The notes below the pieces were generated by a model. The model was given only the letters and a program-made list of their open reading frames with translations, was not told the DNA's origin and did no database searches. Shown one piece after another: positions 1 through 27,400 of a stretch of DNA of 33,203 nt. Position 1 is the first letter of the stretch; every line of letters starts with the position of its first letter. The position numbers and the translations under genes are program-made. The DNA is taken from positions 1 to 33,203 of the forward strand of contig MU271674.1 in assembly GCA_021432655.1 (NCBI GenBank), read 5' to 3'. Source of the stretch: Atractiella rhizophila. Its lineage: Eukaryota.

Positions 1-95
1 CCTAACCCTAACCCTAACCCTAACCCTAACCCTAACCCTAACCCTAACCCTAACCCTAACCCTAACCCTAACCCTAACCCTAACCCTAACCCTAA
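1..95. repeat. Telomere repeat tract (CCCTAA)n, left chromosome end
   Basis: Perfect CCTAA followed by 15 copies of CCCTAA from base 1, with the C-rich strand 5'. This is the TTAGGG-type telomere. Confidence 0.98.
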
Positions 96-1227
96 GCAGC
101 TCGGGCCAAAACCTGCGGGATGGCGGATTTGGGCGTCCAAAATTCAAACATTCGTCCCTGTTCCATCTCATGAATTTATGTACCAGTGCCATATTCCTGA
201 GGTAGTTGTTATTCAGAGTGTAAGAGGAAAAGCAGTGAGCGAAACGAGTGCTATAATCTCGTAAGGCACCGAGTGCGACTTCACTGAATGCAAAGCAAAT
301 TTGTCGAAAGATGCAAAAATGTGTGATAAACTCTTGATTCAGATCGTCGACGTCAGAGACTCGAGGTGAGAAGAGGTAAAATATCTGGAGCAGCAGTTCG
401 ATTGGCAGCCTGCTAATTGGAGATATTTGGCTAAGTCGTATCACAAATGGCATCGTTTCCAAACTTTCCGCGCTGGAAATGGGTGTTTCAATCAAGTCCA
501 AACTATCACAAGGCATGGATGTGGCCATGGATCCAATCATGAAGTTCCAAAAACCACCTGTGCATGTTGCTTCAGCTCGAAACGTTTAGTTCAGTACATA
601 ATTGTCGAATTCTCACGATTTGAGTCAAAGCCCCAGTTACGCAGTGGACGCGTTGACAATACTTTAAGTAATTGACCCTTGGCCCACTTCGCAGCATCCC
701 GATATCGCTCCCCCATCCGAGTTGGCGTTATGGTGTGTTGTTTGGAGTTCGACGTTAGGGGATATGCTTTTACGCCCCCACGCACCCTGCCGTTTTCGTG
801 AAAAGGCATGCTTATTCCGGGTGAGTTATCAATAGCGAGTGAACGAGCAAGATGCATGACTTTGACTGAAGTTCAGAGGAATATTGAATCTTTTATAGCA
901 GGCAATGTCCGTCCGTACCTTGAGAACGAGGGCGGTTAATTCCTGGAGAACTACGTACCTACCGCCTTCGCCTTCTATTCTTCTAAGAGCGTTGGGTTTC
1001 TTGGCGTGAGTCATAAGGCGCTCTTTTGAGCCCTTACACAGCAGACTCGTCGCCCAAGGGGTCGGAGTTGATCGGCGATAAAACTGGTCTATCAGTTTTG
1101 ACCTGCAAATTTTCTTTAAAATTGAAGCGCAAAACCATTTTCGCTTGCGGCCTCCGGCCGCTTGCGCAAACCCCCGGGGGCGACCAGTTTGCCGGGAATC
1201 TTTTTTGTCTCAACCTGCATCCCGCTG

Positions 1228-1634: not shown

Positions 1635-1721
1635 CCCTGAGGTGCAAATGAACCCTCTAAACATCTTCATCTCCTTTGAATCCGGGGTTAAACACCATCA
1701 CTTCCCTGCAAGCCCATAGCC

Positions 1722-3319
1722 ATGGCGAAAAGGCCAATACATCCGGAATCAGATTGTACTATCTATCAAAGGCTGATGTACGATACTTATCTTCATTGGC
1801 CAATATTTAATCCCTTGTATGTCGAGGACGTTGGAGATGGTCGAACTGCCCCAACCGTGGATCGCTCAGCTCGGCCATCTTCCTCTCTTGAAGCAGGCGT
1901 TCGCTCTCCTTCTACACCGACCTCTTCCCCGCCAACCATTACGCCTACCCCTGGTCCATCGCATGAAATCGAAATGCAAATGGATAGTCTCGACGGCCCT
2001 TTAGCCTCGACGCTCGAGGATACTGCCGTCGCCTCTCCCGGTGCTGGATCGTTGCCAGGGAGGAGGAGGGGCTATGGAGGTGAATGGCGAATAGGAGACA
2101 TGGGGTACTGTACCCAACTTGGCACCTTCAGGTTCTCAAGGAATATCGAGAGCCTCACCGGAGCTAAAGGCGAACCGCTTGACTCGCCATTGACGGACGT
2201 TGTTTGCAACGCTGAGTCTCCTATTGTTAGAGGGGACTTCAGTAATACGCACTTTGAAGTCAGCGTGGATCCTCCGGTTTGAGTCTTCTCTTCGGCTATT
2301 CAGTCAGTTCCTTTGTCTCGAATTGACATCTGAGTGTAGTCCCCTCCCTGGAATGCCTTCCTTTGGAGTTCATTACCATAGCCAATCTCACGAAGCCGCC
2401 TTTCTCGCTATCACATCAGACGCATGTCGATTCGCCGTCACTCACGAAGGCGTTGCTGCGAACTATTTCCGGCGGTACTGTAAGACAATGTTGGAAGACG
2501 ATATGCAAGCTGGGTATTGTCCGACCGCCAAAAAGGAACTTTGTATGATCACTGGTCTTGTCAAATCTTTCGGTTGGCTCCGAGCAGTGTGTAGGTCTTC
2601 CGGGTCTAGTTTTGGGGTGAATCTCGGCGCGCAATCAGCTGGATTCGAAGCGGGGCGAGATTATGGCGCTTTGAGAGGTGCTCATGTGCACCATGGCCCA
2701 ACGAGGCATAAACCTAGTATGTCTCTAGCGCTAATCTGCCGACTCTAACATGCCATTCAGGGAGCAGCATTCTCGGAAGCGACGTGGGCGATCAAACATT
2801 GTTCATGACGCGAATTATGTGCAAGTATCCAGGGTTTCCAAAGCTTGGGATCAAAGCGGGAGGGTCAAGGCCACCTTCTCCATCGACAGATCATCAGGAT
2901 GACAGCGTCCATCCAATCTTTAGCATGGACCCAATATTTTCTGATGGATCGACTGAGGATCAGGTCTGTCGCTCGCTCAAATGATTTCCTTTAGTGCTGA
3001 TGATTTCCACCAGACATCCGATCCATTGAGTGTTCTCCTTGATGCCATGGTGACTGTGGGTGTTTCAGGCACGAGAGAAAAGTTGAGGATACTGATACTC
3101 TGATACTCTCGCAGCTGCAGCCCAGTGCGGACCTTGCATCTGACACTGACTTGTGTAACTTATGGCAAAAGGTGCTCTGGTCTTCTCCATTTGTGCCATG
3201 TAAATCATGCTTACGAAGGAGGTGGTAGCTCTCGCATCCCAAATCTAGAGAATGGACCACTCAGAAGGCGGTAGAGCTGTTGCAAGCCTGTGCAGGCTGC
3301 ATGGTAGAAGAAGATGTCG
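1722..3319 (+). CDS. Gasdermin-like (RCD-1/HET-Q1-related) pore-forming domain, multi-exon; 5' part of a probable fusion gene
   Basis: Introns by eye: 2277-2339, 2717-2760, 2964-3013, ~3056-3114, 3172-3228 and 3320-3363. Motifs in order: YQRLM..WPIFNP, GEWRIGDMGY...GTFRFSRNI, EAAFLAI, ELCMITGLVKSFGW, VHHGP, DQTLFMTRI, DPLSVLLDAM, PSADLASDTD. This resembles from memory a basidiomycete gasdermin-like family. One 1-nt frame problem at ~2340. Confidence 0.55.
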
Positions 3320-3363
3320 GTATGTTATCATCCCTCCAGAAATGACAACTCAAGTCTGGATAG

Positions 3364-6300
3364 GGGTGGTGGCACTACAGGTTTGGGAAGATTCCCTTAA
3401 TGTTCTCAATCCTACTGCTCAGCCGAATGATGTGCGAACTGAGACCAACGAGGAACACAACATTCCCGTCATTGTTTCACAATTGGACGCTGCAAAGAAG
3501 ATGCAAGATCCCAACCCGAAACTATCACCCCTAGAAGGTGTTCTTTCGCGCATCCCCTTCCGCCACAACAGGCTCTCCTTCGCCTTCGATAGTCTCACAA
3601 TGCACGTAGGATTGAAAGTGCATCCCGACCGCAGGAATGACTCCTCCACTCCTCTTCAACAACTCTGCAGGGCGGTTCCATCGTCTGCTCGGAATGAACA
3701 TGCGTCTGTCGAAAAGGGCGATGCTATGCCAATCTGCAGAGACCTTAAGCTGGGAATATGGACGGATCGGGGCTTCACGAGTGTTCCGACCGCACAACGC
3801 AACGAAGGGGTCACAAATATGGCGGTACTCGACGCTGATCCATTGCAAGGGCTATTTACTGCAGATAAGGATCCAACAAAGTGGCGGAAAGAGCAGGTGG
3901 ATGATTTCATGGAAGTGTTACGTCGGAGGATAATCCAGCTGTCAGCGCTTGACGCTGGGGGTGAGGAATTTCTCTCCCCTGTCCCTCCTACATCCGCAGA
4001 TCTTCCCTCATCTGTTCACCTGTCATCGATGTCATCCCCGACACTTCCCCAAGACCTGGATCATCTATCCATCTCATTTCCATCCTCACTGGCCCTCGCT
4101 CAACCCTGCCCAACTTCACGTGTGCTGTCACTTCTCTACAGCGCCTCGTCTCAGTTCAGACCCACGCACACAACACGTTCTACAAAATTGGTCACACCCT
4201 GTGATTCACTACGCGACACAAAATTCACATTGCCCACCCGCCGAGCCCTGGAGAGTTCGTCTGCTTCGGTGGAGAGTTGCGGAAGAAGTTCCAATGGGAG
4301 TATCGAGAACGACGCCTCTTCCCTATTCTCGTTCGAGAGCGTGGATATGGAGTGTAAGGATGTGGAAGACGACTACAGCTCCGGTTGCGTAGCATCTGCG
4401 GAGATCGAAATCACGCCAACTCTCTCGCCTACCAAGCTCAACCCTCTGAAATCACCTTCCCTGTTATCTCTCACCTCTTCCTTGGATTCATCGCCGTTGT
4501 ACCATTCTTCCTCTCGCGAGCACTTAACCGTTAACCGCAAAGCCGCTATCCCGATTCCTTCTCCAGCCCTCATTTCCGTCCTCTCAGCTGATGATGTACT
4601 TGCTCCTCAATTCCCCGTCACGGCTCCCACAACCATTGCCCCTTCTACCTTACCCGTCAATCGATTCATGGATCCTATCATGCAGAAACCGAACCAGTTT
4701 AACTGCCGGAATTTCAAGCTTCAGACGTCGCAGTATGCACGGTTGTCGGACATTGTCATCTTCAATAAAGAAGGAGTGCCCAACAGAGAAAACTCAAAAG
4801 ATGGGACGATCGAGGTTGGAGAGGGCAGCATCCGAGCTTTGAGGCTTGCAGAAAGGTTTTTGGATGCCATTGAGGATGAAAGGCAGCGCGTGTATGGCAA
4901 TGGTGATGGTGGTGTGAGATATGGTGTCTACATCATTAGTGGTTCGTGTTCTTGCGATAATTCATTTGGGATCTTGCACTGACGACTGGATGCGATAGAT
5001 CCCGTTGAAGTTTTTGAGCGCGACTTTCCCGAGATGATCTGCATCGGAAGCAATGGAACCATCCAAAACAAGATCGACTTTTACGATCGTGAGAGAGAAG
5101 AAATGAGGAATTTAACGAGCAGAAGCGAAATTGCCAAAAATGTCTGGGTAGGTATCTCATTCGAATTTGTGCTCTTCCTTGTTCACCAATAGTTGCAGCT
5201 GGGAAATACAATGGGAGATGTGCCTATTCACGCGATCAGAAACTTGAATTCTGATTCAACTGCTTCGCTCAGCCAGTATTCTTTCTCGTCTCGCGAAAGC
5301 AACGATGGGACTCCCCAACCTCCTAGCGCGGGCCGTCCGGATGTCAATCCTGATCACTTCTCCATCTGCATCAAGTGTACTGAAACCCCGCCATGCCTGA
5401 TGAAGCATTCCTTCACGATATTTCAGCTTCTCTTGGTGCCATCGAGGACGAGCAAAGCAGCGCAGGTTTGCCTGTTGCTGTCGAAGTGGAAGGTGCGAAT
5501 GGCGATAAAGAAGTCGTCAGCAAGATCTTCAACGTCCACGATATGGTCCAGTTGGAGTGCCTCGGCACTTCACTCGTCTTGGAGAAGGACATCAGGCTGT
5601 TCGTTCGCTTCATGGAGGACATTATCCGACTAGCGGTTTGGATCAAGGATCAGGCCTACAATCAGTCGAGACGGATTCTCATTCACTGTACGGACGGATA
5701 CACTGAGTCGTCCATGCTCGCCCTCACCTACGTCATGCTCGATAGACAGTGTTCTCTACCCGATGCCTACCTTTGGATCCAGAATAACTGCAACAGATCC
5801 TTCTTCGTGTATAAGGACGACATTGATGTGCTCAAGGCTCTGGAGAAGAGGGTCGGGGCATTTGTTCGGCGGGAGAATGAGAAAAGGAAGAGGAGGGAGA
5901 AGCGAAGGAGAGAGACATTGATTGCCCAAGCGATGAAAACTGCTCTACACGGTGGGATGGATGAGCTTCACGAACCCTTCCCTCCGTCTTCTTCTGAGTA
6001 TTCGCGCTTGTCTCGATCTTCGAGCAGGAGCAGCGGTGGTCGGCCTTCCCTATCGGATGACCGGTCGTCTGCCATGCTTTCGAGCATCAGAACGCATCCT
6101 TGGTTCTACGATTCGCATTTTGAAGGTCACTTTCCCAGCCGTATCCTCCCCAATCTTTACCTCGGGAACCTTCAGCATGCCTCCAACCCTCTCATGCTTC
6201 AACAGCTCGGTATCACCCATGTAGTTTCCGTCGGAGAATCTCTTCTCACTCCTCCCCGTCAAGAAGGATTAGGATCTTCCTTTGGTTCCTGGGGTGGCGA

Positions 6301-6866
6301 CTTTGGAATAGGACGACCTGGAATGCCCAGAAGGGAGAATTCGCTGTTCTGGGAACATAAAGAAGGACGGATGCAAGTTTGGACATCAAGGGCGTCTCCG
6401 GTACGAGAGCTTTCCTTTCTTGGAGAGAGCATTGCTTACATCGAGAATAGACGACGGGAATGACAGCATTGTTCCTCATCTCGAGAAAGCGGTCGAGTTC
6501 ATCGACAATGCAGTTCGGTCTGGGGGAAAGGTCCTCGTTCATTGCCAAGTCGGAGTTTCTCGCAGCGCGACAGTCGTAATCGCGTACGTGATGAAGAAGT
6601 GCCAACTCGATCTCGCAAGCGCATACCTCCTCGTTCGCAGCCGTCGCCTCAATATCGTCATCCAACCAAATTGCAAGATTATGTGGGAACTCTGGGTCTG
6701 GGAGGGTCAACTCGAAGAGGCGCGAGAGGCCAGGTCTCGTGCCCTGTCCCCATCCTCGAAAGCAGTGGAAAACCAGAAGGCGTTTCAAAGGACGAAGAAG
6801 ATCAGAATCTCGTGGAGTTTTCTGGCCAGGGAAATTGGAGCCCTCAACGAACGTTATAAATGTTGA
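3364..6866 (+). CDS. PPS1: Pps1-type dual-specificity protein phosphatase (two DSP-like domains), with two apparent frameshifts
   Basis: Motifs: FMDP..RNFKLQTSQYARLSDIVIF, DFYDREREEM...SEIAKNVWLG, ILIHCTDGYTESS, FPSRILPNLYLGNL..GITHVVSVGE and the catalytic VLVHCQVGVSRSAT. Introns 4942-4998, 5148-5198 and 6401-6450; stop at 6866. One base is missing at ~5386-5392 and at ~6378-6380. Confidence 0.85.
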
Positions 6867-7579
6867 GCGTCAATCAACAGTCGTAGCATTATACTTATCT
6901 TATCCTTTTGCCTTTCCTCCGTTCCACTCTCTTATTTTTCCTCTCCCATCCACCGCAGTCCTCTCATCCACTACTCCGTCGCATCATTAACCTACTAACC
7001 TATCATCTACCGTCAAATATCTTTAAACGTCGTCTCCGCTTCGTCGCCGTCAATTCACCGTTAGCTTTTTCTATTACCTTATGTTGGTCATCGGAATAGA
7101 ATCGTTGTGATTCCATATTTCAAGTCTTTGGTCTCCTTTTCCAGTACTCAATTGTCGAAATATCCGTGCTGTTTTCGTGACTCAATTCTCTTTCGCCTTT
7201 CCAAGCTAACTCTCTCCTCTCGACTCTGGTAGTGTAACAGGGGTCGTGATCATATTATTTTATACCGTTTCGTCTGGCAACATTAATTCAGAAACAAACA
7301 TGCGCTCAATATCTTTCTTCTTATCTTCTTGGTCTCTCTTTAATGGTTGTGTTGTTCGGGTCTTCGCGACCAGTTGATGACGGGATGGACGGTCCGTTGG
7401 TCATGTTGGGTTCTCAATCAAAGTGTATTAGGCAGGTCAGATTCAGTGTCTTTCTCTTCCTCATGTCGAAATAATTTGTTTTCTCGGTCCACTTCCCCTT
7501 CCTTTCAAGATGCAAAGGGTTGTTCTTCAACTGTAACCATTACCAAATCTCAAGCATCGTTATACTTACTCAATCAGCT

Positions 7580-10585: not shown

Positions 10586-11420
10586 CGGGGGTCACTGCAG
10601 GGCAATTTTGTTGAAAACGTCCCCAGTCGATAGGTTATCGACACAGGTGTAGAGGGGGTGTGGAAGGTGTAATTTCGCTCAAAACGTCCACAGTCGATAG
10701 GTTATCGACACAGGTGTAGAGGGGGTCACTGCAAGGCAATTTTGTTGAAAATGACCCCAGTCGATAGGTTATCGACACAGGTGTAGAGGGGGTCACTGCA
10801 GGGCAATTTGCTTGAAAACGTCCCCAGTCGATAGGTTATCGACACAGGTGTAGAGGGGGTGTGGAAAGTGCAATTTCGCTCAAAAGGTCCCCAGTCGATA
10901 GGTTATCGACACAGGTGTAGAGGGGGTGTGGAAGGTGTAATTTCGCTCAAAACGTCCACAGTCGATAGGTTATCGACACAGGTGTAGAGGGGGTCACTGC
11001 AAGGCAATTTTGTTGAAAATGACCCCAGTCGATAGGTTATCGACACAGGTGTAGAGGGGGTCACTGCAGGGCAATTTGCTTGAAAAGGTCCCCAGTCGAT
11101 AGGTTATCGACACAGGTGTAGAGGGGGTGTGGAAAGTGCAATGTCGCTCAAAACGTCCCCAGTCGATAGGTTATCGACACAGGTGTAGAGGGGGTGTGGA
11201 AAGTGCAATTTCGCTCAAAAGGTCCCCAGTCGATAGGTTATCGACACAGGTGTAGAGGGGGTCACTGCAGGGCAATTTGCTTGAAAAGGTCCCCAGTCGA
11301 TAGGTTACCGACACAGGTGTAGAGGGGGTGTGGAAAGTGAAATTTCACTCAAAACGTCCCCAGTTGATAGGTTATCGACACAGGTGTAGAGGGGGTGTGG
11401 AAAGTGCAATTTCGCTCCAA
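10586..11420. repeat. 67-bp tandem array (12 cores) with GTCGATA-ggt-TATCGAC palindrome
   Basis: The core GTCGATAGGTTATCGACACAGGTGTAGAGGGGGT starts at 10626, 10693, 10760 ... 11363, at exact 67-bp spacing. The remaining ~27 bp switches between two subtypes. Confidence 0.97.
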
Positions 11421-12039
11421 ACATTCTAATCTCTTGCTCATCACCAAAGGTGGCTAATGAGGATGTGGCGACAAAGTTCATATATACATGCAATTTCCAT
11501 ATGAATGATATATCACTTCCACAGAGGTCCTCTAGCTCCATATGCTTCACTTGAAAATGTTCCTGAAAACCACCGTCATCATTGCATGTTTTACAATCTC
11601 GCTCACACTTATGTTACAATCACTAGAAGATGTAAAAATTACAAAGGGTTTAGAATAGCGTAACATGCGCCTGTCTTCCTGAGAGTTTAGCAATGATCTT
11701 TTTCATTGGCACTAAAACCATTATTGATCATCTGCTTATCGTCATATGTGACCGTAATGATTCAAAACAAGCCCTTTAATAGGTCTCATTTGTTAAATCA
11801 TTCTTAACACTTTTTCATTTTAATGGTATTACTATTTTAAACAGCTCCATCATCTTGATCATTGGTCATACATTCAAGTTTGTGTATACCCCAAATTGAT
11901 TCTACACAATTCAGCCCCTCGCTTGCTCAAGTATACATCCAATGCATGCACTACTTTTAGCAGGGTATAAATCTATCCATGTCTATAGCCAATCTTAAGC
12001 GGCTGCCTGGACGAGTTTCATGAAACTTTGGTTCTCATG

Positions 12040-12377: not shown

Positions 12378-13320
12378 TAAGAGACAACAGTTTTGCAATG
12401 ATACTGTTTTTATTGGGGCAGGGTCGCACCTTGGGTGCCTAGGAGGCAAGGATATAGCCAGGATCCTGTTCCTGGCAGAGGCAGTGTTGGAATCTGAGCG
12501 GCATGGAGGGGCAAGGATATAGCCAGGATCCTGTTTGTGAGACAGGCAGGGTTGTACCCTAGGCAGCGAGGAGGCAAGGATGTAGGCGGGATCCTGTTCG
12601 CGACAGCATCAGGGTCGTACCCTGGGTGACTAAGAGGCAAGGATGTAGCCAGGATCTTGTTCCTGACAGAGGTAGGGTTGTACCCTAGGCAGCCAGGAGG
12701 CAAGGATTCAGCCTGGATCTCATTCCTGAAAGAGTATCAATATATGTGTTGTAAGATGTCAAAGAGCGGACACAGCCTCTGCCTGCGAGTGTTTATACGT
12801 TCATGAAATTTTGACTGGATTGCTATTCCATATCTATGGCAGGGTTCTACCCTGGTCGACTAAGAGACAACAGTTATGTAGTGAAGCTGTTTATATTGGG
12901 GCAGGGACGCACCATGAGTGACTAGGAGGCAAGGATATAGCCAGGATCTTGCTCCTGATACAGGCAGGGTTGTACCCTGGGCCGCGAGGAGGCAAGGATT
13001 CAGCCAGGATTCTGTTCCCGACTATAGGCAGGGTTGTACCCTAGGCGGCGAGGAGGCAAAGATGTACACAGCATCTCAATGCTCCTGACAGCATCAGGTT
13101 CATACCCTGGCTGCTTAAGAGGCAAGGATGTAGGCAAGATCATGTCCTGACATAGGCAGAGTTGTACCCTGAGGCCACGAGGAGGCAAGGATTCAGCCAG
13201 CACTCGCGAAGTTCCTGACATAGGCAGGGTTGTACCCTAGGTGCCCAGCAGGCAAGGATTCAGACTGGATCTCATTCCTGAAAGAGCCAGGGTTGAACCC
13301 TAAAGTACCCTTAGTAGCAA
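12378..13320. repeat. ~63-bp tandem array (GGCAAGGAT..AGCCAGGATCCTG..CAGGGTTGTACCCT) in two blocks
   Basis: GGCAAGGAT is at 12445, 12510, 12573, 12636 and 12699, then again from 12928 to ~13251. The leader TAAGAGACAACAGTT is duplicated at 12378 and 12861. Confidence 0.93.
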
Positions 13321-13329
13321 TCATTCTGG

Positions 13330-14690
13330 GCTCGCGAGAGCTTGGACTTAACTTTTCGTGAGACCCAACCATTCGCGGCAGCTTGCCCCAATGTTCTCCT
13401 CGCGAGAGCTCGCGAACGTTTTTGAGTCGCGATTGATCGCGATCGTGTTCGCGCAGCGACAGCTGGCGAGAATCAGCTTTGTTTCGCGAGAGTTGCAATC
13501 TTGTTCGTTCGTGAGCAACCCTTCGCAGCAGGACTGTTGCAAACTCGTCGCGAGTTTGCTCTCTCGCGAGTTTACAGTCTCGCGTTTGCAGTCTCTCGCG
13601 TTTGCCATCTCTCGCGTTTGCAATCTCTCGCGTTTGCAGTCTCTCGAGTTTGCATTCTCGCGAGACAGCAAACTCGCGAGGCAGCACCCGAGCAAGAAAA
13701 CCAACACCAACTCACCCACCCGACAGCACTCGCGAGGCAGCATTCAAGCCACTTTGCAACGAACCAACACCAACACAAACCAGCCGACAGCACTCGCGAG
13801 GTGGCACCCGAGACACTTTGCAACAAACCAACAACACAACCAGCCGACAGCACTCGCAAGGCTACGAAACCAACCCTCATCTCGCGAGGTGGCACCTGAG
13901 CCAGTTTGCAAGAAAACCAACACTTACTCACCCACCCGACAGCACTCGCGAGGCAGCGCCCGAGCCACTTTGCAACGAAACAAGACTAACACAAACCTGC
14001 CGACAGCACTCGCGAGGCTACGAAACCAACTCTCATCTCGCGAGGTGGCACCCGAGACACTTTGCAACGAAAGCAAACACCGACACAAACTCACCCGACA
14101 GCACTCGCGAGGCAGCACCCAAGCCACTTTGCAACGAACCAACACCAAAACAAACCTGCCGACAGCACTCGCGAGGCTACGAAACCAACTTTCATCTCGC
14201 GAGGTGGCACCCGAAACACTTTAAAACAAACCAACAACACAACCAGCCGACAGCAGTCGCAAGGCTATGAAACCAACCCTCATCTCGCGAGGTGGCACCT
14301 GAGCCAGTTTGCAAGAAAACCAACACTTACTCACCCACCCGACAGCACTCGCGAGGGCAGCGCCCGAGCCACTTTGCAACGAACCAAGACTAACCACAAA
14401 CCTGCCGACAGCACACGCAAGGCTACATGCGAACCACTCCTCGGCACCCGAGCCACATCGCAACAAAACCAACACCAACACAGTCATCTTGCGAGGTGGC
14501 GCCCGAGCCGCTTTGCAACAAATCAACACCACAACTCGCCGGACAACAGTCGCGAGGCGGCACCCAAGCCACTTTGCAAAGAAACCAACACCAACACATC
14601 CCATCCGACAACACTCGCGAAACGACATGCAAACCGACACCCAACCCACACAACATCCCACAGCACTCACGAGGCGACACGCGAACCAGT
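13330..14690. repeat. CTCGCGAG-family array: ~16-bp micro-units, then ~60-65-bp units
   Basis: TCTCGCG(AG)TTTGCA micro-repeats at ~13540-13680, then repeated CCGACAGCACTCGCGAGG(C/T)(A/G)GCACCCGAG.CACTTTGCAAC. A higher-order period of ~402 bp is visible (13825 vs 14227). Confidence 0.93.
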
Positions 14691-14859: not shown

Positions 14860-16812
14860 ATAATGATGAGTGAACATAAAAAAAAGCGGAGCAAAAAGAT
14901 GCATCTTCATATATCAAAAACACAATTCGCTATTACTTCACCATTATCCATCACATTTGGGGCGTCAGTAGGGCCAACGCAAGGGCTGAGGGCCAGCTAC
15001 AACGACGTATAATTCTTAATACGAATGGGTGAATATTAAAAAAAGCGGAGTTCAAAATACGCACCTTGTAAATATCCAAAATCGCAATTCCTCATTGCTT
15101 CGCAATTATCCATCGTATTTTAGACGTGAGTAGCGCGAATTGGTGGCCTGAGATGTAGCTTTAACGACGTATAATTCTTAATGAGACTGAGGTAACATTA
15201 AAAAAAGCGGAGTTCAAAATACGCACCTTGTAAATATCCAAAATCGCAATTCCTCATTGCTTCGCAATTATCCATCGTATTTTAGACGTGAGTAGCGCGA
15301 ATTGGTGGCCTGAGATGTAGCTTTAACGACGTATAATTCTTAATGAGAATGAGGTAACATTAAAAAAAGCGGAGTTCAAAATACGCACCTCAGATATATC
15401 AAAAATCGCAATTCCTCATTGCTTCGCCATTATCCATCGTATTGTGGACGTGAGTAGCGCGAATCGGTGGCCTGAGATGTAGCTTTAACGACGTATAATG
15501 TGTATTGAGAATGAGCTAACATTGAAAAAAGCGGAGGACAAAATACGCACCTCTCATACCTCAAAAATTGCAATTGCTCATTACTTCGCCATTATCCATG
15601 GTATTTTAGGCGTAAGTGGCGCGAATGGGAGGCCCTATATGTAGCTACAACGACATATAATGTGTATTCAGAATGAGTGAATATTAAAAAAAGCGGAGGA
15701 TAAATACTCACCTGATATATCAAAAATTGCAATTCCCCTTTTCTTCGCCATTATCCATCGCATTTCGGGCGTGAGTCGCGGGAATGGGAGCGCCGAATGC
15801 CAGCTACAACGACGTATAATTCTTAATAAGAATGAGTGAATATTAAAAAAAGCGGAGTTCAAAATACGGACCTCATATATGTGAAAAGTTGCAATTGCTC
15901 ATTACTTCGCCATTATCCCTCGTATTTTAGACTTGAGTGGCGCAAATGAGAAGCCCGACATGTAGCTACAACGACGTATAATTCTTAATGAGAATGAACC
16001 AATATTAAAAAAATCGGAGGACGAAATACCCTCCTCACACACTTCAAAATCGCAATTCCTCATTCCTTCGTCATTATCCATCGTATTTTCGACGTAAGTA
16101 GCGCTAATTGGAGGCCTGAGACGTAGGTTTAACGACATATGATGCCTATTGAGAATGAGTGAATATTGGAAAAAGCGGAGTACAAAATACGCACCTCTCA
16201 TACCTCAAAAATTGCAATTGCTCATTACTTCGCCATTATCCATGGTATTTTGGACGTGAGTGGCCTGAATGGGAGGCCTGAGATGTAGCTTCAATGACGT
16301 ATAATTCTTAATAAGAATGAGTGAATATTAAAAAAAGCGGAGGACAAAATATTCATCTGATATATATCAAAAATTGCAAATCCTCATTGCTTCGCCATTA
16401 TCCATCGTGTTTTACACGTAAATAGTGCAAATGGGAGGCCCAGGATGTACCTTCGATGACGAATAATGTGGATTGAGAATGAGGGAATATAAAAAAAAGT
16501 AGAGGTCAAAATACACACCTCATATATATGGAAAAATGCAATTCCATATTGCTTCGCCATTATCCATGATATTCTCGACCTAAGTAGCGCGAATGGGAGG
16601 CCTGAGATGTAGCTTTAACGACCTATAATGTGTATTGAGGATGAGCTAACATTGAAAAAAGCGGAGGACAAATACGCACCTCTCCTATGTCAAAAATTGC
16701 AATTCCTCATTACTTCGCCTCATGCAATTTTAGATGTAAGTAGCACGAATAGGAGGATAGAGATGTAATTTCAACGACGTTAATGTGTATTGAGAATGAG
16801 TGAATATTAAAA
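14860..16812. repeat. ~162-bp AT-rich satellite, ~12 copies
   Basis: The AAAAAAGCGGAG anchor (G position) is at 14886, 15045, 15207, 15369, 15531, 15693, 15852 ... 16661. GCAATT.CTCATT.CTTCGC.ATTATCCAT is conserved in the units. Confidence 0.96.
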
Positions 16813-16817
16813 AGTGT

Positions 16818-17920
16818 ATCGCGAGTTAGGTGCTGCCTTGCGAGTTAGGTGCTGCCTCGCGAGTTTGCTGCTGTCTCGCGACTTTGCATTCTCGCTGCTT
16901 TGCTGTCTCGCGAGTTTGCATTCTCGCGAGTCTGCTCTCTCATGTTTGCATTCTCGCTAGTTTGCTGTCTCGCGAGTGTGCTCTCTCGCGTTTACAGTCT
17001 CGCGAGTTTGCATTCTCGCGAGTTTGTTGCAGTCTCGCAAGTTTGCATTCTCGCGAGTTTGTTGCAGTCTCGCGTTTGCAGTCTCGCGAGTTTGCATTCT
17101 CGCTAGTTTGCTCTCTCGCGTTGGCAGTCTCGCGAGTTTGCATGCTCGCGAGTGGGCATGCTCGCGAGTTGGCCATCTTGCGAGTTTGCTCTCTCACGTT
17201 TGCAGTCTCGCGAGACAGCATTCTCGCTAGTTGGCCGTCTCCCGGGTTTGCTGTCTTGCGAGCTGGGCGTCTCGCGAGTGCTCTTCGCTAGTTTGCTGTC
17301 TCGCGAGTTTGTTGCTCTCTCGCGCGTTAGCAACCTAGCGTTTCACCTCGCTAGTTTGCTGTCTCGCGAGTTGGCCATCTCGCGAGTTGGCAGTCTCGCG
17401 AGTTAGCTGTCTCGCGAGTTTGTTGCCGTCTCGCGAGTTTGCAACCTAGCGTTTGGGTTCACCTCGCTAGGTTGCTCTCTCGTGAGTTGGCTGTCACCCA
17501 TATCCCATCCGACAGCACTCGCGAGTTGACATGCGAACCACTCTGCGAAGTGGCACCCGAGCCACTTTGCAACGAAAAAAGCATACAAATAACTCAGCCC
17601 AACAGCACTTCTGAGACGACACACAAACCACTTCAATGAACCAACACCCGCTCAACTCATCCGGCACCACTCGGGAGGTGGCCCCAAATTACTTTGCAAT
17701 GAACCAACAGCACTCACGAGGCAACATGCGAACGACTTTGCAATGAAACCAAAACCCATACAACTCCATCCGACAGCACTCGCGAAGCAAGATGCAAACC
17801 TCTTTGCAACGAAACCAACACACATACAACTTCCTCCAACAGCACTTGCAGGTGGCATTGACATGTGAACCACGTAGCATAGCTGCATCTGAACCACTTT
17901 GCAACGATACCAACACCCAC
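16818..17920. repeat. Second CTCGCGAG-family block (micro-units, then degenerate long units)
   Basis: Dense TCTCGCGAGTTTGC 16-mers at 16818-17490, then CGACAGCACTCGCGAG..CACTTTGCAAC units. Confidence 0.92.
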
Positions 17921-18129: not shown

Positions 18130-18829
18130 TTGCTATGGGAGAAAGAAGTGGACGCATAGGTCGCCTTGATCGATCCCAATAGCAAAATCTTGAGCATAGG
18201 ATAACCTCTGAGGCCTAAGTCCCGCCACAAGTACCATCTAAGGGTGCGGATGTGCAGAGTATCCTGAGCCTTTAGTTATTCATGCAAACTGCCTGTGCTG
18301 CCTCTGAACAGCGCCTGCCCACTTCTGACACCCAAACCCCTCTTGAGCACTTGACCTTCCTTTTACCATGGGAGAAAGAAGTGGACACTTAGGTCGCCTT
18401 GATCGATCCCACAGCAAATTTCAGGAACAAGTACACTTTCAGGTTTTGGGTCTCCTAAGCGCACACTTCGCTTTCTGCCAGTAAGATATATACTAAGTGC
18501 CACAAGATGCTCCGAAGACCAAGAACCCACCTTCAAAACCCGAATCCATTTTGAGCGCCTGACCTTTAGCAAGCCTTGGGAGAAAGAAGTGGACGCATAG
18601 GTCGCCTTGATCAATCCCACAGCAAACCTCAGGAACAAGTGCACAGTCCAGCTTCGGGTCTCTCCAGCAAGCACCTTGCCTTCTGCGAGCAAATGTGCAA
18701 GGTGCTCCAGCTGCCCCAAAGAGTAAGTGCCCACCTCAATGACCCGAACCCCTTTTCAGCGCCAGCCTTTGGTTTGCCATGGGAGAAAGAAGTGGACGCA
18801 TAGGTCGCCTTGATCGATCCCACAGCAAA
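18130..18829. repeat. Four near-identical 50-bp hairpin cores separated by diverged 150-180 bp intervals
   Basis: TGGGAGAAAGAAGTGGACGCATAGGTCGCCTTGATCGATCCCACAGCAAA starts at 18136, 18369, 18577 and 18780. Confidence 0.93.
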
Positions 18830-19069
18830 CGGCAGGACCGAGTGCTGTTTGAGGATTCAGATCCTCCAAGTGAGCACTTCACCTTCGGCCAGCAAGAGCA
18901 ACGAAAACACAGCAGGGGACAATTTCGGACAAACACTTACCGGTGCATTTCTTGGGGGATCCAGAGAGGAGTCAGCCTTATAAGGACTTTCTGAGAGCCC
19001 CTTCGGGGAAGTAGAACCTCAGGGGCTTGGGATCACTTTGGGGGACTCTGGTTCAGGTTCACTCTTGCG

Positions 19070-20385
19070 AAGCCTAGCTCGCTTCAGCAAAGGTAGGTTC
19101 GTTGCCATGAAGTCAAGTTCACTCCAACAAAGACAGGCTCACTGGGACTGAGTCAGTTCGCTCTCGCGACCTCCTGTCACTTCAGTGAAGCCAGGGCTAC
19201 TCAAGCCACGCGAGAATACCTCCTGTTCGCTTCAGCAAAGACAGACTCGCTGGGGCAAAGTCAGTTGGCTCCAACAAGGCCTGGCTTGCCTGGGCAAAGA
19301 GCAGTTCGCTGGAGTGAAGCAAGGCAGACTTGCTCAGGCGAAGTACGTTCGCTCCATCAAGGCCAGGCTCACTCCTGCGAAGGCAGACTCACTCGGGCGA
19401 ACTGCAGTTCGCTGGAGCAAAGTCAGACTTGCTTGGGCGAAGTCAGTTCGCTTCAGCAAAGTCTGGCTCACTCCGGCGAAGCACAGTTCGCTCTAGCGAA
19501 GTCTGGCTCGCTCCAGCGAAGGGCAGTTCGCTCTAGCGAAGCCAGGCTCACTGGGACGAAATCAGTTCGCTCCTGCGAAGCCCAGCTCGCTCGGGCCAAG
19601 TGCAGTTCGCTCTAGCGAAGGCAGGCTCGCTAGGACGAAGTCAGTTCGCTCCAGCAAGGCCAGGCTCGCTCCTTCGAAGGCAGACTCACTCGGGTGAAGT
19701 GCAGTTCGCTCTAGCGAAGCCAGGCTCGCTGAGACGAAATCAGTTCGCTCCTGCGAAGTCAAGCTCGCTCGGGCGAAGTGCAGTTCCCTCTAGCGAAGGC
19801 AGGCTCGCTAGGACGAAGTCAGTATGCTCCTGCAAAGCCTGGCTCGCTCTAGCGAAGTGCAGTTCGCTGGAGCAAAGTCAGACTTGCTTCGGCGAAGCCA
19901 GTTCGCTTCAGCGAAGTCTGGCTCGCTCCAGCGAAGTGCAGTTCGCTCTAGCGAAGCCAGGGTCGCTGGGACGAAATCAGTTCGCTCCTGCGAAGCCCAG
20001 CTCGCTCGGGCCAAGTGCAGTTCGCTCCAGCGAAGGCAGGCTCGCTAGGACGAAGTCAGTATGCTCCTGCAAAGCCTGGCTCGCTCCAGTGAAGTGCAGT
20101 TCGCTCTAGCAAAGCCAGGCTCGCTGGGACGAAATCAGTTCGCTCCTGCAAAGTCAAGCTTGCTTGGGCGAAGTGCAGTTCCCTCTAGAGACGCCAGACT
20201 TGCTGGGACAAAGTCAGTTCGCTCCAGCAAGGCCAGGCTCGCTCCTTCGAAGGCAGACTCACTCGGGTGAAGTGCAGTTCACCGGAGCAAAGTCAGACTT
20301 GCTTGGGCGAAGCCAGTTCGCTTCAGTGAAGTCTGGCTCGCTCCGGCGAAGTGCAGTTTGCTCCTGCCAAGCCCGGCTCGCTCTG
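19070..20385. repeat. Array of 18-21-bp modules built on the TTCGCT-nn-AGCGAA palindrome
   Basis: Dozens of CAGTTCGCTC(T/C)AGCGAAG and CAGGCTCGCT..GACGAA modules, more degenerate at the edges. Confidence 0.94.
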
Positions 20386-23834: not shown

Positions 23835-24457
23835 CTTTCAGGCTGCTGTTGGGTTCTCTTCAACGCATCTTCGCTATCCTTATGAGAAGGTGGAGCCTTC
23901 TCCAACCCACAGCAATCAGGACTTCCTTAACCCACTGGATTGATGGCGTGATGTGGTTAGCTGCTGGGGAGCCTCTCGATGAAAGACATCGACAGGTTCA
24001 ACAGGTTCAACGGGACGCCAGCATCCGGGGTTAAGAGTCACCTTAACACTGTCCACCAGTTGACCCCTTCTGCTCTCCTAACCCTTTGCTGACGGGACGG
24101 GACTCTTCTCTCTCGTTCAACCTGCCACTTGCTAACCACTTTCTCACCCACTCTCCCACCTGCTCTCAAAAATAGGAGAGCTTTGCAGCTTTGTATCCCG
24201 GATAAACAATTGGGGACACGGGAAAGTGTTAACCTGCACGTTCTTTCATAACTGCTAGCGTCCCAAAGTCTGTCCCGGTGACTCAACCAAGAAATGGGAC
24301 AAACGCACAACGCCACTCACGCAATCCATTCCTGCATTCCTGAATCCTGGAAACACTGGATCATGGAAACACTTCTTTCTTCAAAACCATGCCATCCCCA
24401 TCCGAGTGCACTTCTCGACTTCTTTGCACTTTTTGCAAGGAGAAGGGTTAGCTGAAG

Positions 24458-27400
24458 ATGAACGCCGTTCCACTCCTGCAATCTCGCTCTGAGCCCTGGC
24501 TAAGCCCTTCTACGCCAGGAATCACTGCTGGTGACAAGGAGGAAAGTGGGAAAGACGAGAGTGGGAAAGACGAGAGTGGGAAAGACGAGTATCCAACATA
24601 CGAAGAGGGTGATCCAAAGGTCTCAGAAACATATTCCGTCATGACCTTGGTGGAAGCCTTCCTCCCCTCCCTCCTTGGCATCGCTTATGTCATTTTTTGC
24701 GTCTACGTCTCTGACGCCTCGTCCCCACCCGTCATCTCCCATTCCACCGCACACGCCACCGAACTACGAGGAGCGACCACGGCAATCGCCAATATCTGGA
24801 TCTTTATCTCCCTTCTCTTTGTGGGGAACCTCATTGACCGAATACGCTCTGAGGAATGGCATCGACGTCTGATGAGTGCGACGGAGGTGGGAACGCCGTT
24901 TGCACACCTCAATCACGTCTCGTCAAATTTGGGTGGAACACTCAGACATGCCGTTGATTTGTTTTCATTCTTCACCGGATCCTCGAGACCTTTCAAAAGC
25001 GTCTTCATTAGCGCCCTCCTAGCCATCGCGCTCAACGAAACGGCCCCTTCCATCCTTCAAGTAGTTCCCGGTTTGTTTTCCACTCTTACTTTTCGACTGC
25101 CATCCATCCAACATTAATTGATGCCTAGGTTGGTACCCCATTGGACGGCACAATATCTCGATACCTTCCCTACCGCCACTCTCCCTTCACGCCAACCTCT
25201 CTACAGTCTTCTCCCGGACCTCGACAACTAGTTCAGAGCTCGCAACGGTCTACGTTTTTGCCAAACTCAACAACGAGCCGATCTTCATCTACCGTAACTT
25301 CCCAAACGCCGTCGTCCCTCTTCCTAATATTTTATCCGATCATGGAGAGGTTTACGAGACGGATGTCGGTTTCTTTGCGTATGATTGCGAATGGATGGCT
25401 CCTGTCCTTGGGAATCCGATTGGGAGTACTACGGCCGAGGTGATCAGTAATAGAATGACTTATGCGGGAGGTGGGTATATGGGGTTTGGCAGTGCACCGT
25501 TCTGGCCTGACAGTATGTCTGATTCCATTTCTTCTATGAATGAGGATGAGGTATTCATGAAATGCGGTATGAAAAGCGCTCGACCTCCTCGACACGATAT
25601 ACAAGCTCTCCCCCGACAACACCACCTTGGTCCCCTCATACGACGGTGTGCTAATGATCACCGTCCAATCTGCCCCACTAGAAGCGATCCAACAAAGCAG
25701 GGGACTGTGGATGGACACCTCTTCCATCCCCACCTCCCCGATCCCCTCCACCTGGTCCGCCTTCCAGACCGATGCCGCAAACCTGTACGGGAACCCGATA
25801 GCGACGGACGTATCGATGCTCCTCTGCATCCCTCAAGTCATTGTAGAAAGCCATAGGATTACAGTGAGGGGGGGCACATACCTGAGCTATCATATTGAGC
25901 CGCTCGACTATCGAGTGGGGAACATCGACGAGACTCAACTACGGATCGCCATGTCTGATTCGCTACTGGATTTCGCCACTTCAACCTATTTCTACCTCAT
26001 CCCTATGGGCTTGAGCGGCGGATCAGCGGAGGAGACAATTGGCATTTACACTCCGATCAACCAGACCGTCCTCGGACCGACATATACGAGATTTGTCCAA
26101 AGCGCGCTGTCTGCGTATTTGGATGGCGGACCGTTTGGCACGATGGATGTGGATAGTCAGGGGTCGAGACTCGGATTGGTGTTGAAGGCACAGAGGGAGT
26201 TTCTCTGGCTCGTCGCTGGTTTCTACGCCCTCCTTGCGCTGGTGGGAGCGGCGGTGGTGTGGTTTACCAGTGGGAGGCGGGAGCAGAGGATCGGGAGGTT
26301 CCTGGGGATTGGGAGAGTGCTGAGTCTCGTCCAGTGGGGTGGGAGGGATTTTCCCTCCGGACTAGAGAGGACGTTGAACGGAAGGAGGGTTGCGGTGGTT
26401 GCTGCTGAGGTCGCGGGGGGAGAGGGGAAGATGGAGAGCGAGGAGGAGAGGGCACTTCTTGCGTTCCGCACCGCGCGGGTTTGTGTGAAGGATTTCCCAT
26501 CTGTTGATGGAGTGGCACCGGCGCTCAGTGTGCAGATCGGCCCTCCAGTGGTCAAGGGGTGGTTGGAGAGGAAGATCAAGGCGTTGAGGAATGTGGTGAT
26601 GTTCATCACACCGGTCGTTGGCGGAGCCTTTGTGGCGTTCGGCGTGTATGCCTATAAACATGACGTCGTGGTTCCTATTAAGATCGAGGAGGAGAGACTC
26701 GTCCTGATTGGCACGCTCTTTACTATCGCGGTTGGCTTTTGGAGAACGTTAGCGTTGGGAGGGACGAGGAGTGCGATTCGAGAGGTGCGGTCTGAGGTTA
26801 GTCCCTTCAAACCCCTGTCCTCTCTTCCCTCAGAAAGATGATGTGATGTGATAGGAATGGACGCGGCTTTCGGATCTGGCCCAGAAAAATGGACAGCTGG
26901 AGGATGAGAAGGTAAAAGAAGCCTTGGAGGACGTCTCAACCAACCAAACATCGATCATCCACTGGCTCCGCTACGCTCTCTTCTACACACCGCGCTCGCT
27001 TATCTCAGGCTACTATCGCCTCACTTTCCTCACTTTCATCCTGATGTCCGCCTGCTCCATCCTCTCCCAAGGAGCCATCCAACTCCGCCTACGTGAACTC
27101 CCCCTCTCGCCTGCCCAACCCTCAAATGTCAATTCGTACGATGCAAACTTCATTACGGTGTATAAGAACCTCACTGAGGAGCCGTGGGCTTCCCAAGCTG
27201 CGCTCATCACGAACTCGACGAGGTTAGATGTAATCGAGGGGTTCAGCCATACCGCGGACAATTATGCGTATCTTGAGCATGTGTTGGAGGTGACTATCGG
27301 ATTTAAGATGCCTTCCCAGGGGAAGGAAGGGTACTTCCTCATGCAGCCACAGGACACGATATACGAGCGGAATGCGAGCGTACGTTTCTACACGGATCTC

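What the first reader, a model, noticed from the sequence alone, without database searches (positions are those of the whole stretch)
1722..6866. Candidate gasdermin-like::Pps1 phosphatase fusion gene next to the telomere
Seen: after the last gasdermin-like exon (...MVEEDV, 3229-3319), a 44-nt phase-1 GTATGT..TAG intron (3320-3363) joins in frame to ORF 3252-4982. That ORF runs without a stop through a long Ser/Pro-rich linker into Pps1 motifs, and I do not see the LFP(W/F)LHG-type N-terminal motif I recall for Pps1. Known: fungal gasdermins (Neurospora RCD-1, Podospora HET-Q1) execute cell death, and HET-Q1 is activated by cleavage by the neighbouring protease HET-Q2. Inference: no protease gene is evident here, so the phosphatase could be an integrated sensor/decoy or phospho-switch on a pore-former, or the locus could be a recent subtelomeric chimera.
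Basis: partly seen in the sequence, partly recalled or inferred. Interest (0 to 1): 0.85.

Follow-up and report, generated by a model that had tools for sequence, protein, structure and literature searches.

The report
Subtelomeric chimeric gene with decaying phosphatase half
A gene from a small, lineage-restricted fungal family sits 1.6 kb from a chromosome end and is spliced in frame onto a partial, recently duplicated copy of the PPS1 phosphatase gene, but two one-base deletions put the phosphatase domains out of frame, so it looks like a young chimera in decay and not a working pore-former/phosphatase fusion.

Summary
The 44-nt intron (3320-3363) is real. An RNA contig joins 3318/3319 to 3363/3364 and runs on, without a difference, to 4344. 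The upstream gene (1722-3319, six exons) belongs to a family found only in Atractiella rhizophila. It has no Pfam, PADLOC or PDB match. Gasdermin likeness rests on one weak protein-language-model lead, and both structure predictions failed (pLDDT 37-38).

The phosphatase half is not a whole PPS1. The N-terminal LFP[WF]LHG module is absent. Reads show a second, about 40-fold better expressed PPS1 copy, about 96-97% alike, whose likeness to the window starts at 4234.

Compared with that copy and with PPS1 homologues, the window lacks one base in a C-run (5386-5389) and one in a T-run (6378-6380), both inside conserved motifs. The spliced reading frame therefore stops at TAG 5631-5633, before both DSP domains.

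Verdict: this is a transcribed subtelomeric chimera, family gene plus 5'-truncated PPS1 duplicate, with the phosphatase part frameshifted. The sensor or phospho-switch idea does not fit as the sequence stands. No protease gene is in the window.

The parts
1..95 (.). Telomere repeat (CCTAAC)x15.8; the chromosome end
1722..2276 (+). Family-A gene, exon 1 (ATG 1722). Holds the conserved blocks IYQRLMYD..LHWPI and GGEWRIGDMGYC..GTFRFSRN
   Evidence: Alignment to Atractiella paralogues. Low RNA cover in X3 over 1687-2060. The following intron 2277-2334 is inferred from phase and homology only and has no RNA cover.
2335..2716 (+). Family-A exon 2, the best conserved core (61% identical to P0121)
   Evidence: Intron 2717-2760 is seen as an RNA joint in X3.
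2761..2963 (+). Family-A exon 3 (VGDQTLFMTRIMCK, GGSRPPSPS)
   Evidence: Intron 2964-3013 is seen as a joint in X3 and X6.
3014..3055 (+). Family-A exon 4 (DPLSVLLDAMVT)
   Evidence: Intron 3056-3114 is seen as a joint in X3 and X6.
3115..3171 (+). Family-A exon 5
   Evidence: Intron 3172-3228 is seen as a joint in X3 and X6.
3229..3319 (+). Family-A exon 6 (EWTTQKAVELLQACAGCMVEEDV). If the next intron is retained, the frame ends at TGA 3343-3345
3320..3363 (+). 44-nt phase-1 intron (GTATGT..TAG), spliced in RNA
   Evidence: X3 joint 3318->3363, depth 5.08, 1 contig, 20 letters on the short side
3364..4233 (+). Unique coding 'tail' of 289-290 codons. Probably the native C-terminal tail of this family-A paralogue. 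Its start, VGVVALQVW, fits the family's VGLTL.F block only in the spliced form
   Evidence: It is the only long open frame here. It shows no likeness to the family-A tails (best E 1.2) and gives no hit at E<=1 to the 120 PPS1 homologues. DNA and RNA contigs cover it with 0 differences.
4234..4941 (+). Start of the PPS1-derived segment, in the same exon and the same frame. 4234 is the left edge of likeness to the second PPS1 copy
   Evidence: Loose ends at 4234 in X1, X2 and X3. Window-type contigs cross it to 4344. PPS1 homology starts at about 4500.
4999..5147 (+). PPS1-derived exon; introns 4942-4998 and 5148-5198
   Evidence: RNA joints of the second copy in X3
5199..5633 (+). PPS1-derived exon as the window reads it. 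The frame is lost in the C-run 5386-5389, and 82 out-of-frame codons follow to TAG 5631-5633
   Evidence: The second copy has one more C behind 5385: X1 301.8 of 424.1 depth, X2 244.4 of 244.4, X3 195.3 of 195.3.
5648..5785 (+). First DSP-like domain (HCTDGYTES at 5684-5710), in frame 2, not reached by the fused frame
   Evidence: Pfam DSPc, E 1.1e-09
6378..6380 (+). T-run where a second base is missing. The motif MQV|LDIKGVS is split between frames 2 and 1
   Evidence: The second copy has one more T behind 6377: X1 305.6 of 1005, X2 268.4 of 268.4, X3 260.4 of 260.4.
6451..6866 (+). Last PPS1-derived exon with the catalytic DSP domain (HCQVGVSRS at 6540-6566) and stop TGA 6864-6866. The exon is intact but out of frame with everything upstream. 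The intron before it is 6401-6450
   Evidence: Pfam DSPc, E 7.3e-25; joint in X3

Best explanation
The locus is a young subtelomeric chimera. A gene of a small family restricted to the Atractiella lineage (exons 1722-3319 plus its own variable C-terminal tail, 3364-4233) lost its original 3' end. This happened when a duplicated piece of the PPS1 dual-specificity phosphatase gene was joined to it in frame at 4234. That piece starts in the Ser-rich linker behind the N-terminal LFPWLHG module and runs past the stop at 6866.

The chimera is transcribed at a low level and its introns are removed, including 3320-3363, so the family protein is read on into PPS1-derived sequence.

The PPS1-derived part has since lost one base in a C-run (5386-5389) and one in a T-run (6378-6380). 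Translation therefore ends at TAG 5631-5633. The product (1163 codons) would hold the family core, its tail, about 350 residues of the non-catalytic middle of PPS1 and 82 out-of-frame residues. It would hold no phosphatase domain.

The organism's PPS1 function is presumably supplied by the second copy, whose RNA contigs are about 40-fold deeper.

Shown: the splice; the DNA and RNA contigs across 4234; the second copy; both frame breaks; the absence of the N-terminal module.
Inferred: the direction and order of events; that the tail is native to the family gene; that the product is made at all.
For: 1. Splice and continuity. X3 (which behaves as RNA, with 8 GT..AG joints) has the joint 3318->3363. 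One contig runs 3363-4344 with 0 differences. X6, a soil metatranscriptome, shows 3 of the 5 upstream joints. X1 and X2 (DNA, no joints) each have one contig covering 1500-4344 with 0 differences.
2. Second copy. From 4234 on, further contigs match at about 96-97% (for example 18 differences in 468 and 36 in 994). They have loose ends at 4234 carrying the same 30 letters in X1, X2 and X3. Their RNA depth is 195-260, against 5.08 for the window-specific contig.
3. Frame breaks. The second copy has +C behind 5385 and +T behind 6377. In X1 a contig of depth about 122 (424.1 minus 301.8) lacks the C and carries the window's letters at 5315-5389, close to the window-specific depth of 132. Homologues read ICVEAHEAGEMP...LDAIED and NSLW.EE..G.I.VLD.K.V.DDGIDS without a break. 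The window needs a frame change inside each of these.
4. The fused CDS stops at 5631-5633.
5. The N-terminal PPS1 profile scores 0.2 bits on the ORF. In full-length PPS1 homologues (among the 40 queried) residues of about 196-290 align to window positions of about 4500-4700.
6. Family A: 6 real hits among 1.84 billion representatives, all Atractiella rhizophila proteins of 102-743 aa. None carries a phosphatase.
7. Searches for longer proteins sharing exon 2 or ORF 3249-4979 found none.
Against: 1. Both missing bases lie in homopolymer runs, the typical place for long-read assembly errors. In X2 only the contig with the extra base was laid at both places. The window-type reading therefore rests on X1's depth arithmetic and not on a contig I could read.
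2. Of the 40 listed differences between the copies (126 in all; 86 not shown), 37 are exonic. 25 of these are synonymous and 12 are not, in the homologous frame, including 3 synonymous to 1 non-synonymous behind the first frame break. That is the pattern of purifying selection on both copies. It means either that the breaks are very recent, or that the divergence predates the duplication, or that the breaks are not real.
3. No window-type RNA contig was seen beyond 4344, so RNA does not show how far the chimeric transcript runs. Contigs drop rare variants, so this is no evidence of absence.
4. An assembled contig shows continuous RNA cover, not a single molecule.
5. I could not read the second copy's sequence upstream of 4234. 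That it carries the N-terminal module is therefore assumed.
Confidence: 0.62

Rival explanations
1. It is a working fusion protein. The two frame breaks are assembly or strain artefacts. The gene then encodes about 1540 residues: family-A domain, tail, and PPS1 without its N-terminal module but with both DSP domains.
For: The in-frame splice and the in-frame junction at 4234. All three homologous frames are free of stops, and the catalytic HCQVGVSRS is intact. Synonymous differences exceed non-synonymous ones, 25 to 12, also behind the first break. Both breaks lie in homopolymer runs.
Against: X1 holds a contig at single-copy depth (about 122) without the extra C and with the window's own letters around it. 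None of the 6 family members found has a phosphatase. No longer relatives of exon 2 or of the ORF were found (weak evidence by the tool's own account). Window-specific RNA is about 40-fold less deep than that of the other copy.
Confidence: 0.17
2. These are two separate tandem genes. The family gene ends at TGA 3343-3345 through intron retention, or at a poly(A) site in the tail. The PPS1-like part is transcribed from its own start, for example ATG 3342 or ATG 3820.
For: The unspliced frame ends 24 nt into the intron, and an in-frame ATG (3342-3344) overlaps that stop. An ATG at 3820 would give an N-terminal length like that of Microbotryomycete PPS1.
Against: The spliced form is the one assembled from RNA, and its contig runs on for 980 nt at the same low depth as the upstream exons. 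There is no room for a promoter or UTRs. The family block VG-h-x-L-x-h is matched only after splicing. The tail has no PPS1 likeness.
Confidence: 0.12
3. The join is an assembly artefact, made where a repeat shared with PPS1 begins.
For: All k-mer contigs stop at 4344, where the two copies become identical.
Against: Contigs of two DNA runs (one sample) and one RNA run cross 4234 by 110 nt with 0 differences. The frame is kept. Window-type letters recur downstream at single-copy depth in X1: 110.9 at 4442-4524, 140.4 at 4800-4829, 122.3 at 5315-5389.
Confidence: 0.04

Closest known systems
PPS1 (fungal dual-specificity protein phosphatase; the name is carried by Rhodotorula and Sporobolomyces hits)
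   Same: It has two DSP-type domains in the same order, with the catalytic HCxxGxxRS in the second. It is 36-40% identical over the core to most Microbotryomycete PPS1 proteins of 870-1000 aa.
   Different: It lacks the N-terminal module with LFP[WF]LHG. It begins inside another gene's reading frame. Two frame breaks separate the domains from the start codon. A second, better expressed copy exists.
Fungal gasdermins HET-Q1 / RCD-1
   Same: A weak lead only. The nearest named clusters in the Atlas feature search are bacterial gasdermin (0.85, 140 of 256 features shared) and pejvakin/gasdermin (0.81, 121 shared). The layout is a conserved core, then a Pro/Ser linker, then a helical segment. That layout comes from a low-confidence model and from my own reading.
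   Different: No Pfam, PADLOC or PDB profile match. The core is longer, at about 330 aa plus tails of 130-300 aa. No protease neighbour was found, whereas 80% of 1,884 het-Q1 homologues have one within 10 kb (PMC8851545, section 10 read). That paper describes het-Q1 homologues as ubiquitous in Ascomycota; this is a basidiomycete family.
Chimeric genes and pseudogenes made by subtelomeric segmental duplication (general knowledge, recalled; no paper consulted)
   Same: It lies 1.6 kb from the telomere. It is a partial copy of a housekeeping-type gene joined to a gene of a lineage-specific family. The two copies are about 3-4% apart. Expression is low, and there are early disabling changes.
   Different: The joint is in frame and is transcribed and spliced. 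The copy shows a purifying-selection pattern.
Integrated decoy domains of plant NLR immune receptors
   Same: A domain of a cellular signalling enzyme is attached to a candidate cell-death protein.
   Different: The enzyme domains are not in frame here. No receptor or protease partner is seen. No other family member has such a domain.

Membership tests
PPS1-type dual-specificity phosphatase | Two DSP-type domains, the C-terminal one with the catalytic HCxxGxxRS | tested here: met
   Pfam DSPc E 1.1e-09 (5648-5785) and E 7.3e-25 (6450-6704); HCQVGVSRS at 6540-6566. This is met at the DNA level only.
PPS1-type dual-specificity phosphatase | N-terminal module with LFP[WF]LHG (present in 74 of the 120 listed homologues) | tested here: not met
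   The profile of that module scores 0.2 bits on ORF 3249-4979 and has no better hit elsewhere in the finding.
PPS1-type dual-specificity phosphatase | One continuous reading frame from start codon to catalytic domain | tested here: not met
   Frame changes at about 5385 and about 6378 inside conserved motifs. The fused CDS stops at 5631-5633. The other copy has the extra bases.
Gasdermin (Pfam Gasdermin, bacterial and fungal gasdermins) | Significant match to a gasdermin sequence profile | tested here: not met
   No gasdermin family at E<=1 to 10 in Pfam for the window's exons or for 6 family members. None in PADLOC. 0 PDB chains at E<=10 with the family profile. The copy of Pfam held lacks PF26164.
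Gasdermin (Pfam Gasdermin, bacterial and fungal gasdermins) | Gasdermin pore-forming fold | tested here: inconclusive
   AlphaFold2 on P0123 and P0122 with 12-13 alignment rows gave mean pLDDT 37.3 and 38.5. No fold search was run on such models. Atlas features put gasdermin clusters nearest among named clusters, at 0.85 and 0.81, which is below the tool's 0.9 line.
Gasdermin (Pfam Gasdermin, bacterial and fungal gasdermins) | Neighbouring S8 or CHAT protease gene (80% of fungal het-Q1 homologues; PMC8851545, section 10) | tested here: not met
   0 of 85 ORFs of 85 aa or more outside 1700-6900 have any Pfam hit at E<=0.001. 17 long ORFs gave no family beyond one weak GYF_2 match below its cut-off (E 0.0056, 16.9 against 25.8 bits) at E<=0.01. 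Short exons could be missed.
Gasdermin (Pfam Gasdermin, bacterial and fungal gasdermins) | Membrane pore formation or toxicity after removal of the C-terminal part | not testable with these tools
   Needs expression experiments.
Atractiella 'family A' (unnamed hypothetical proteins KAH89...) | Shared conserved blocks: MYD..LHWPI, GGEWRIGDFGYC, QSQ..A.LAT.S..RFAVTH, ELCMITG.VK.F.WL.AV, VGDQTLF, DPL.VLLEAM, IASD.DL, EWT.QKAV.LLQ.C | tested here: met
   phmmer E 8.9e-43 to 3.3e-09 for exon 2. tblastn of the paralogues hits exons 1-6 in order. Alignment A1.

The most novel reading that the evidence does not exclude
The two frame breaks are errors, or are private to the sequenced culture. The natural allele would then encode a roughly 1540-residue protein. 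In it, a basidiomycete gasdermin-like pore-forming domain is held in check by, or made answerable to, a captured PPS1 phosphatase module. That would be a cell-death executor with an integrated signalling-enzyme domain in place of a partner protease. The excess of synonymous changes in the captured part (25 to 12) would then reflect selection on the fusion itself.
Probability: 0.1. Interest if true: 0.8.

Novelty: new member of a known kind. Interest (0 to 1): 0.4.

Why it matters
As it stands this is a clean, datable example of how chromosome ends make new gene structures. A partial copy of a conserved phosphatase gene was captured in frame by a lineage-restricted gene, is transcribed and spliced, and is already breaking down.

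It also flags a small orphan family in Atractiella-like fungi. The Atlas places that family next to large unnamed Basidiomycota clusters, with gasdermins as the nearest named relatives. If that link held, it would extend gasdermin-type cell-death proteins to a basidiomycete group where none of the profile searches used here (Pfam, PADLOC, PDB) detects them.

For annotation, the lesson is practical. A gene model drawn from 1722 to 6866 would need two unsupported frame corrections.

Tried and rejected
1. PPS1 N-terminus hidden in 3364-4233. A BLASTP hit without composition correction (E 0.016) lined LNPTAQ, HVGLKVHP and LGIWTDRG up with LHPTAQ, HGLQVDP and LFPWSHG. The profile test gave 0.2 bits, and the reads put the edge of likeness at 4234. 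I take the hit as chance.
2. Fold test of the gasdermin idea. Two AlphaFold2 jobs gave pLDDT 37-38, so no fold search was run.
3. Word-index searches for longer relatives of exon 2 and of ORF 3249-4979 found none. The first also missed P0121, which is in the collection, so these blanks are weak.
4. Atlas search with exon 1 alone gave nothing above 0.79.
5. Metagenome scan with the family alignment: 294 pattern matches, none confirmed.
6. Metagenome scan for the 30 letters that flank the second copy at 4234: 0 matches. I therefore could not read the other copy's 5' part.
7. No whole genome is held for this window, so a direct search for the other PPS1 locus was impossible.
8. The genome search for PF26164 failed because the family is not in the library. 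I did not pursue it.
9. Earlier findings of the scan: nothing.
10. Literature: 0 papers hold 'gasdermin', 'fungal', 'phosphatase domain' and 'fusion' together. 27 papers hold 'gasdermin' and 'Basidiomycota' (listing of 15 seen). I read passages of two of them, and those passages do not describe such a family.
11. No window-type RNA contig was seen beyond 4344, and X3 has no cover over 2061-2434. These are holes in contig data, not findings.
12. Copy number from depth. The variant contigs are 2-3 times the window-specific depth in X1 but 3-5 times in X2. I draw no copy number from this.

Full report
SETTING
The window opens with 15.8 copies of CCTAAC (1-95), so it is a chromosome end. The finding lies 1.6 kb inside. 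The rest of the window is poor in recognisable genes. 0 of 85 stop-to-stop ORFs of 85 aa or more outside 1700-6900 have a Pfam hit at E<=0.001. Minisatellite arrays fill much of 10.6-20.6 kb. No whole genome is held for the window.

THE UPSTREAM GENE
From ATG 1722 I can draw six exons: 1722-2276, 2335-2716, 2761-2963, 3014-3055, 3115-3171 and 3229-3319. All introns are GT..AG and 44-59 nt long.
- Four of the five internal introns, and the intron after exon 6, appear as GT..AG joints in run X3. That run's contigs skip introns, so it behaves as RNA. Three of the joints also appear in a soil metatranscriptome, X6.
- The first intron (2277-2334) has no RNA cover. It rests on phase and on homology.

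Pfam finds nothing in these exons. A full HMMER scan of 1.84 billion representatives with exon 2 gave 7 hits. Six are real (E 8.9e-43 to 3.3e-09) and one is a bacterial repeat protein that I discard. All six, plus one further cluster member, are hypothetical proteins of Atractiella rhizophila, 102-743 aa long. The window shares every conserved block of this family, up to EWTTQKAVELLQAC..C..E. It is a paralogue-level relative, at most 61% identical.

The PPS1 part's best relatives are Microbotryomycete proteins at only 36-40% identity. Together this places the organism among Pucciniomycotina, probably near Atractiella.

IS IT GASDERMIN-LIKE?
No alignment-based test says so.
- Pfam at E up to 10 on six members, PADLOC, and a family profile against all PDB sequences at E up to 10 gave no gasdermin.
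- Two AlphaFold2 runs on family members, with the only alignment I could build (12-13 rows), gave mean pLDDT 37.3 and 38.5. I therefore ran no fold search.
- The one positive sign is the Atlas feature search with the core of P0121. All 30 best clusters are unnamed Basidiomycota clusters (0.96-0.97). The nearest clusters that carry a Pfam family are bacterial gasdermin (0.85, on 11% of members) and pejvakin/gasdermin (0.81). By the tool's own calibration this is a lead, not evidence.
- No protease gene is near. By contrast, 80% of 1,884 fungal het-Q1 homologues have a protease neighbour within 10 kb (PMC8851545, section 10 read).
I put the gasdermin-fold reading at roughly even odds and do not file the gene under that family.

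THE SPLICE
X3 has the joint 3318->3363 (cut +1, GT..AG, depth 5.08, 20 letters on the short side). The same contig runs 3363-4344 without a difference.
- Unspliced, the frame would end at TGA 3343-3345.
- Spliced, it enters ORF 3249-4982 in frame.
- The family block that follows C..E.. in the paralogues (VGLTLTF, VGLTLRF) is matched by VGVVALQVW only in the spliced form. The intron and the start of the next exon are therefore native to the family gene.
- The next 289 codons (3366-4233) resemble neither the paralogues' tails nor any of the 120 PPS1 homologues. The paralogues' tails also differ among themselves, so this stretch is most simply the gene's own variable tail.

THE PHOSPHATASE HALF
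Pfam finds two DSP domains. tblastn with 40 homologues shows likeness from about 4500-4700 to 6863. In full-length homologues (for example P0001) this corresponds to residues from about 196 to the end.

The N-terminal module is missing. 74 of the 120 listed homologues carry [LVIF]FP[WFY][LSI]HG. A profile of that region scores 0.2 bits on the ORF, no better than unrelated ORFs of the window.

The reads explain why. In both DNA runs (X1 and X2, one sample) and in X3, further contigs match the window only from 4234 onward. They match at about 96-97%, and the same 30 foreign letters lie before 4234 in each run. In X3 they are 195-260 deep, against 5.08 for the window-specific RNA contig. So the genome holds at least one other, much better expressed PPS1 copy. 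The window's copy is a partial duplicate whose left edge, 4234, lies in the Ser-rich linker.

Window-type DNA and RNA contigs cross 4234 by 110 nt with no difference, and the frame is kept. The joint is therefore real, in frame and transcribed.

THE FRAME BREAKS
The other copy has one more C behind 5385 and one more T behind 6377. Homology shows the same thing without any use of the reads.
- Homologues read NP.AFAICVEAHEAGEMP......YLDAIED without a break. The window reads NPDHFSICIKCTETP in frame 0 and AMPDEAFLHDISASLGAIEDE in frame 2.
- Homologues read NSLW.EE..G.ISVLD.K.V.DDGIDS. The window reads ENSLFWEHKEGRMQV in frame 2, LDIKGVS in frame 1 and, after intron 6401-6450, DGNDSIVPHLEKAVEFID in frame 0.
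- No intron can sit inside these motifs.
With the RNA-supported introns the fused frame therefore ends at TAG 5631-5633, after 1163 codons. Both DSP domains, the intact HCQVGVSRS among them, lie out of reach.

ARE THE BREAKS REAL?
For: in X1, at 5315-5389, a contig of about 122 depth (424.1 in all, minus 301.8 for the variant) carries the window's letters and lacks the extra C. That is close to the 132 of the window-specific contig.
Against:
- Both breaks lie in homopolymer runs.
- In X2 only the variant contig was laid at both places.
- Of the 37 exonic differences among the 40 listed (126 in all), 25 are synonymous and 12 are not. If the window copy had drifted freely since the duplication, I would expect roughly 38% synonymous by a simple two-lineage estimate of my own. 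68% is observed.
So most of the divergence arose under purifying selection. Either the breaks are recent, or the duplicated piece came from an already diverged functional allele or copy, or the breaks are artefacts. I give about 3 in 4 that they are real.

READING
The best-supported account is a young subtelomeric chimera: a family gene plus a 5'-truncated PPS1 duplicate, transcribed at a low level, spliced, and with the phosphatase part already disabled (0.62).
Rivals:
- A working full fusion, with the breaks as artefacts (0.17).
- Two separate genes (0.12).
- A misassembly (0.04).
I put that at about 0.1.

LIMITS
- All read evidence comes from one call on assembled contigs of four coded runs. 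Contigs show presence, not absence, and not single molecules.
- I could not read the second copy's 5' part.
- I consulted no supplementary files.
- From PMC8851545 I read section 10 and searched passages. From PMC9815663 and PMC10197012 I read passages only.
- The statements about subtelomeric chimeras and about plant integrated decoys are recalled, not taken from any call.

Noticed in passing
window 1-585, minus strand: An open frame runs off the telomeric end (195 aa, 3' open) and contains ...LPIELLLQIFYLFSP..., which recalls an F-box-like motif (recalled). Pfam gave no hit at E<=0.001.
   Followed up: partly
window ~1215-1545: Two diverged direct copies of about 170-190 nt (GCTGTTACG..GATGGTT..TTTGCA..TTGAT.. 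..ATTGAC..CAGACATT) lie just upstream of the gene's start. I saw them by eye. Tandem Repeats Finder did not report them at score 80.
   Followed up: no
window 10602-11422, 12441-13301, 13548-14620, 14866-16813, 16819-17491, 18362-18845, 19321-20256: A dense run of minisatellite arrays with periods of 16 to 268 nt. One array has 12 copies of a 162-nt AT-rich unit. Several arrays are built on a TCGCGAG core. This is typical subtelomeric repeat DNA.
   Followed up: partly
window 24452-28336, plus strand: Long open frames (221, 244, 422 and 494 aa) have no Pfam hit at all. They may be one or two orphan genes. I did not search them further.
   Followed up: no
window 3342-3345: ATGA: an in-frame ATG of the long ORF overlaps the TGA that would end the upstream gene if intron 3320-3363 were retained.
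   Followed up: partly
window 6412-6414 and 6687: Two runs of one sample show different insertions in the intron of the other PPS1 copy: CC behind 6412 in X1 and T behind 6414 in X2. X1 also has a contig of depth 137 with an extra A behind 6687. There may be more than two PPS1-like copies in the genome.
   Followed up: no
window 2822-3772 and 4491-7100: A soil metatranscriptome (X6) holds spliced contigs of the family gene with 0 differences, and contigs of PPS1 with some differences. The organism, or a near-identical strain, is therefore active in that soil sample. I draw no habitat claim beyond this one laid run.
   Followed up: partly
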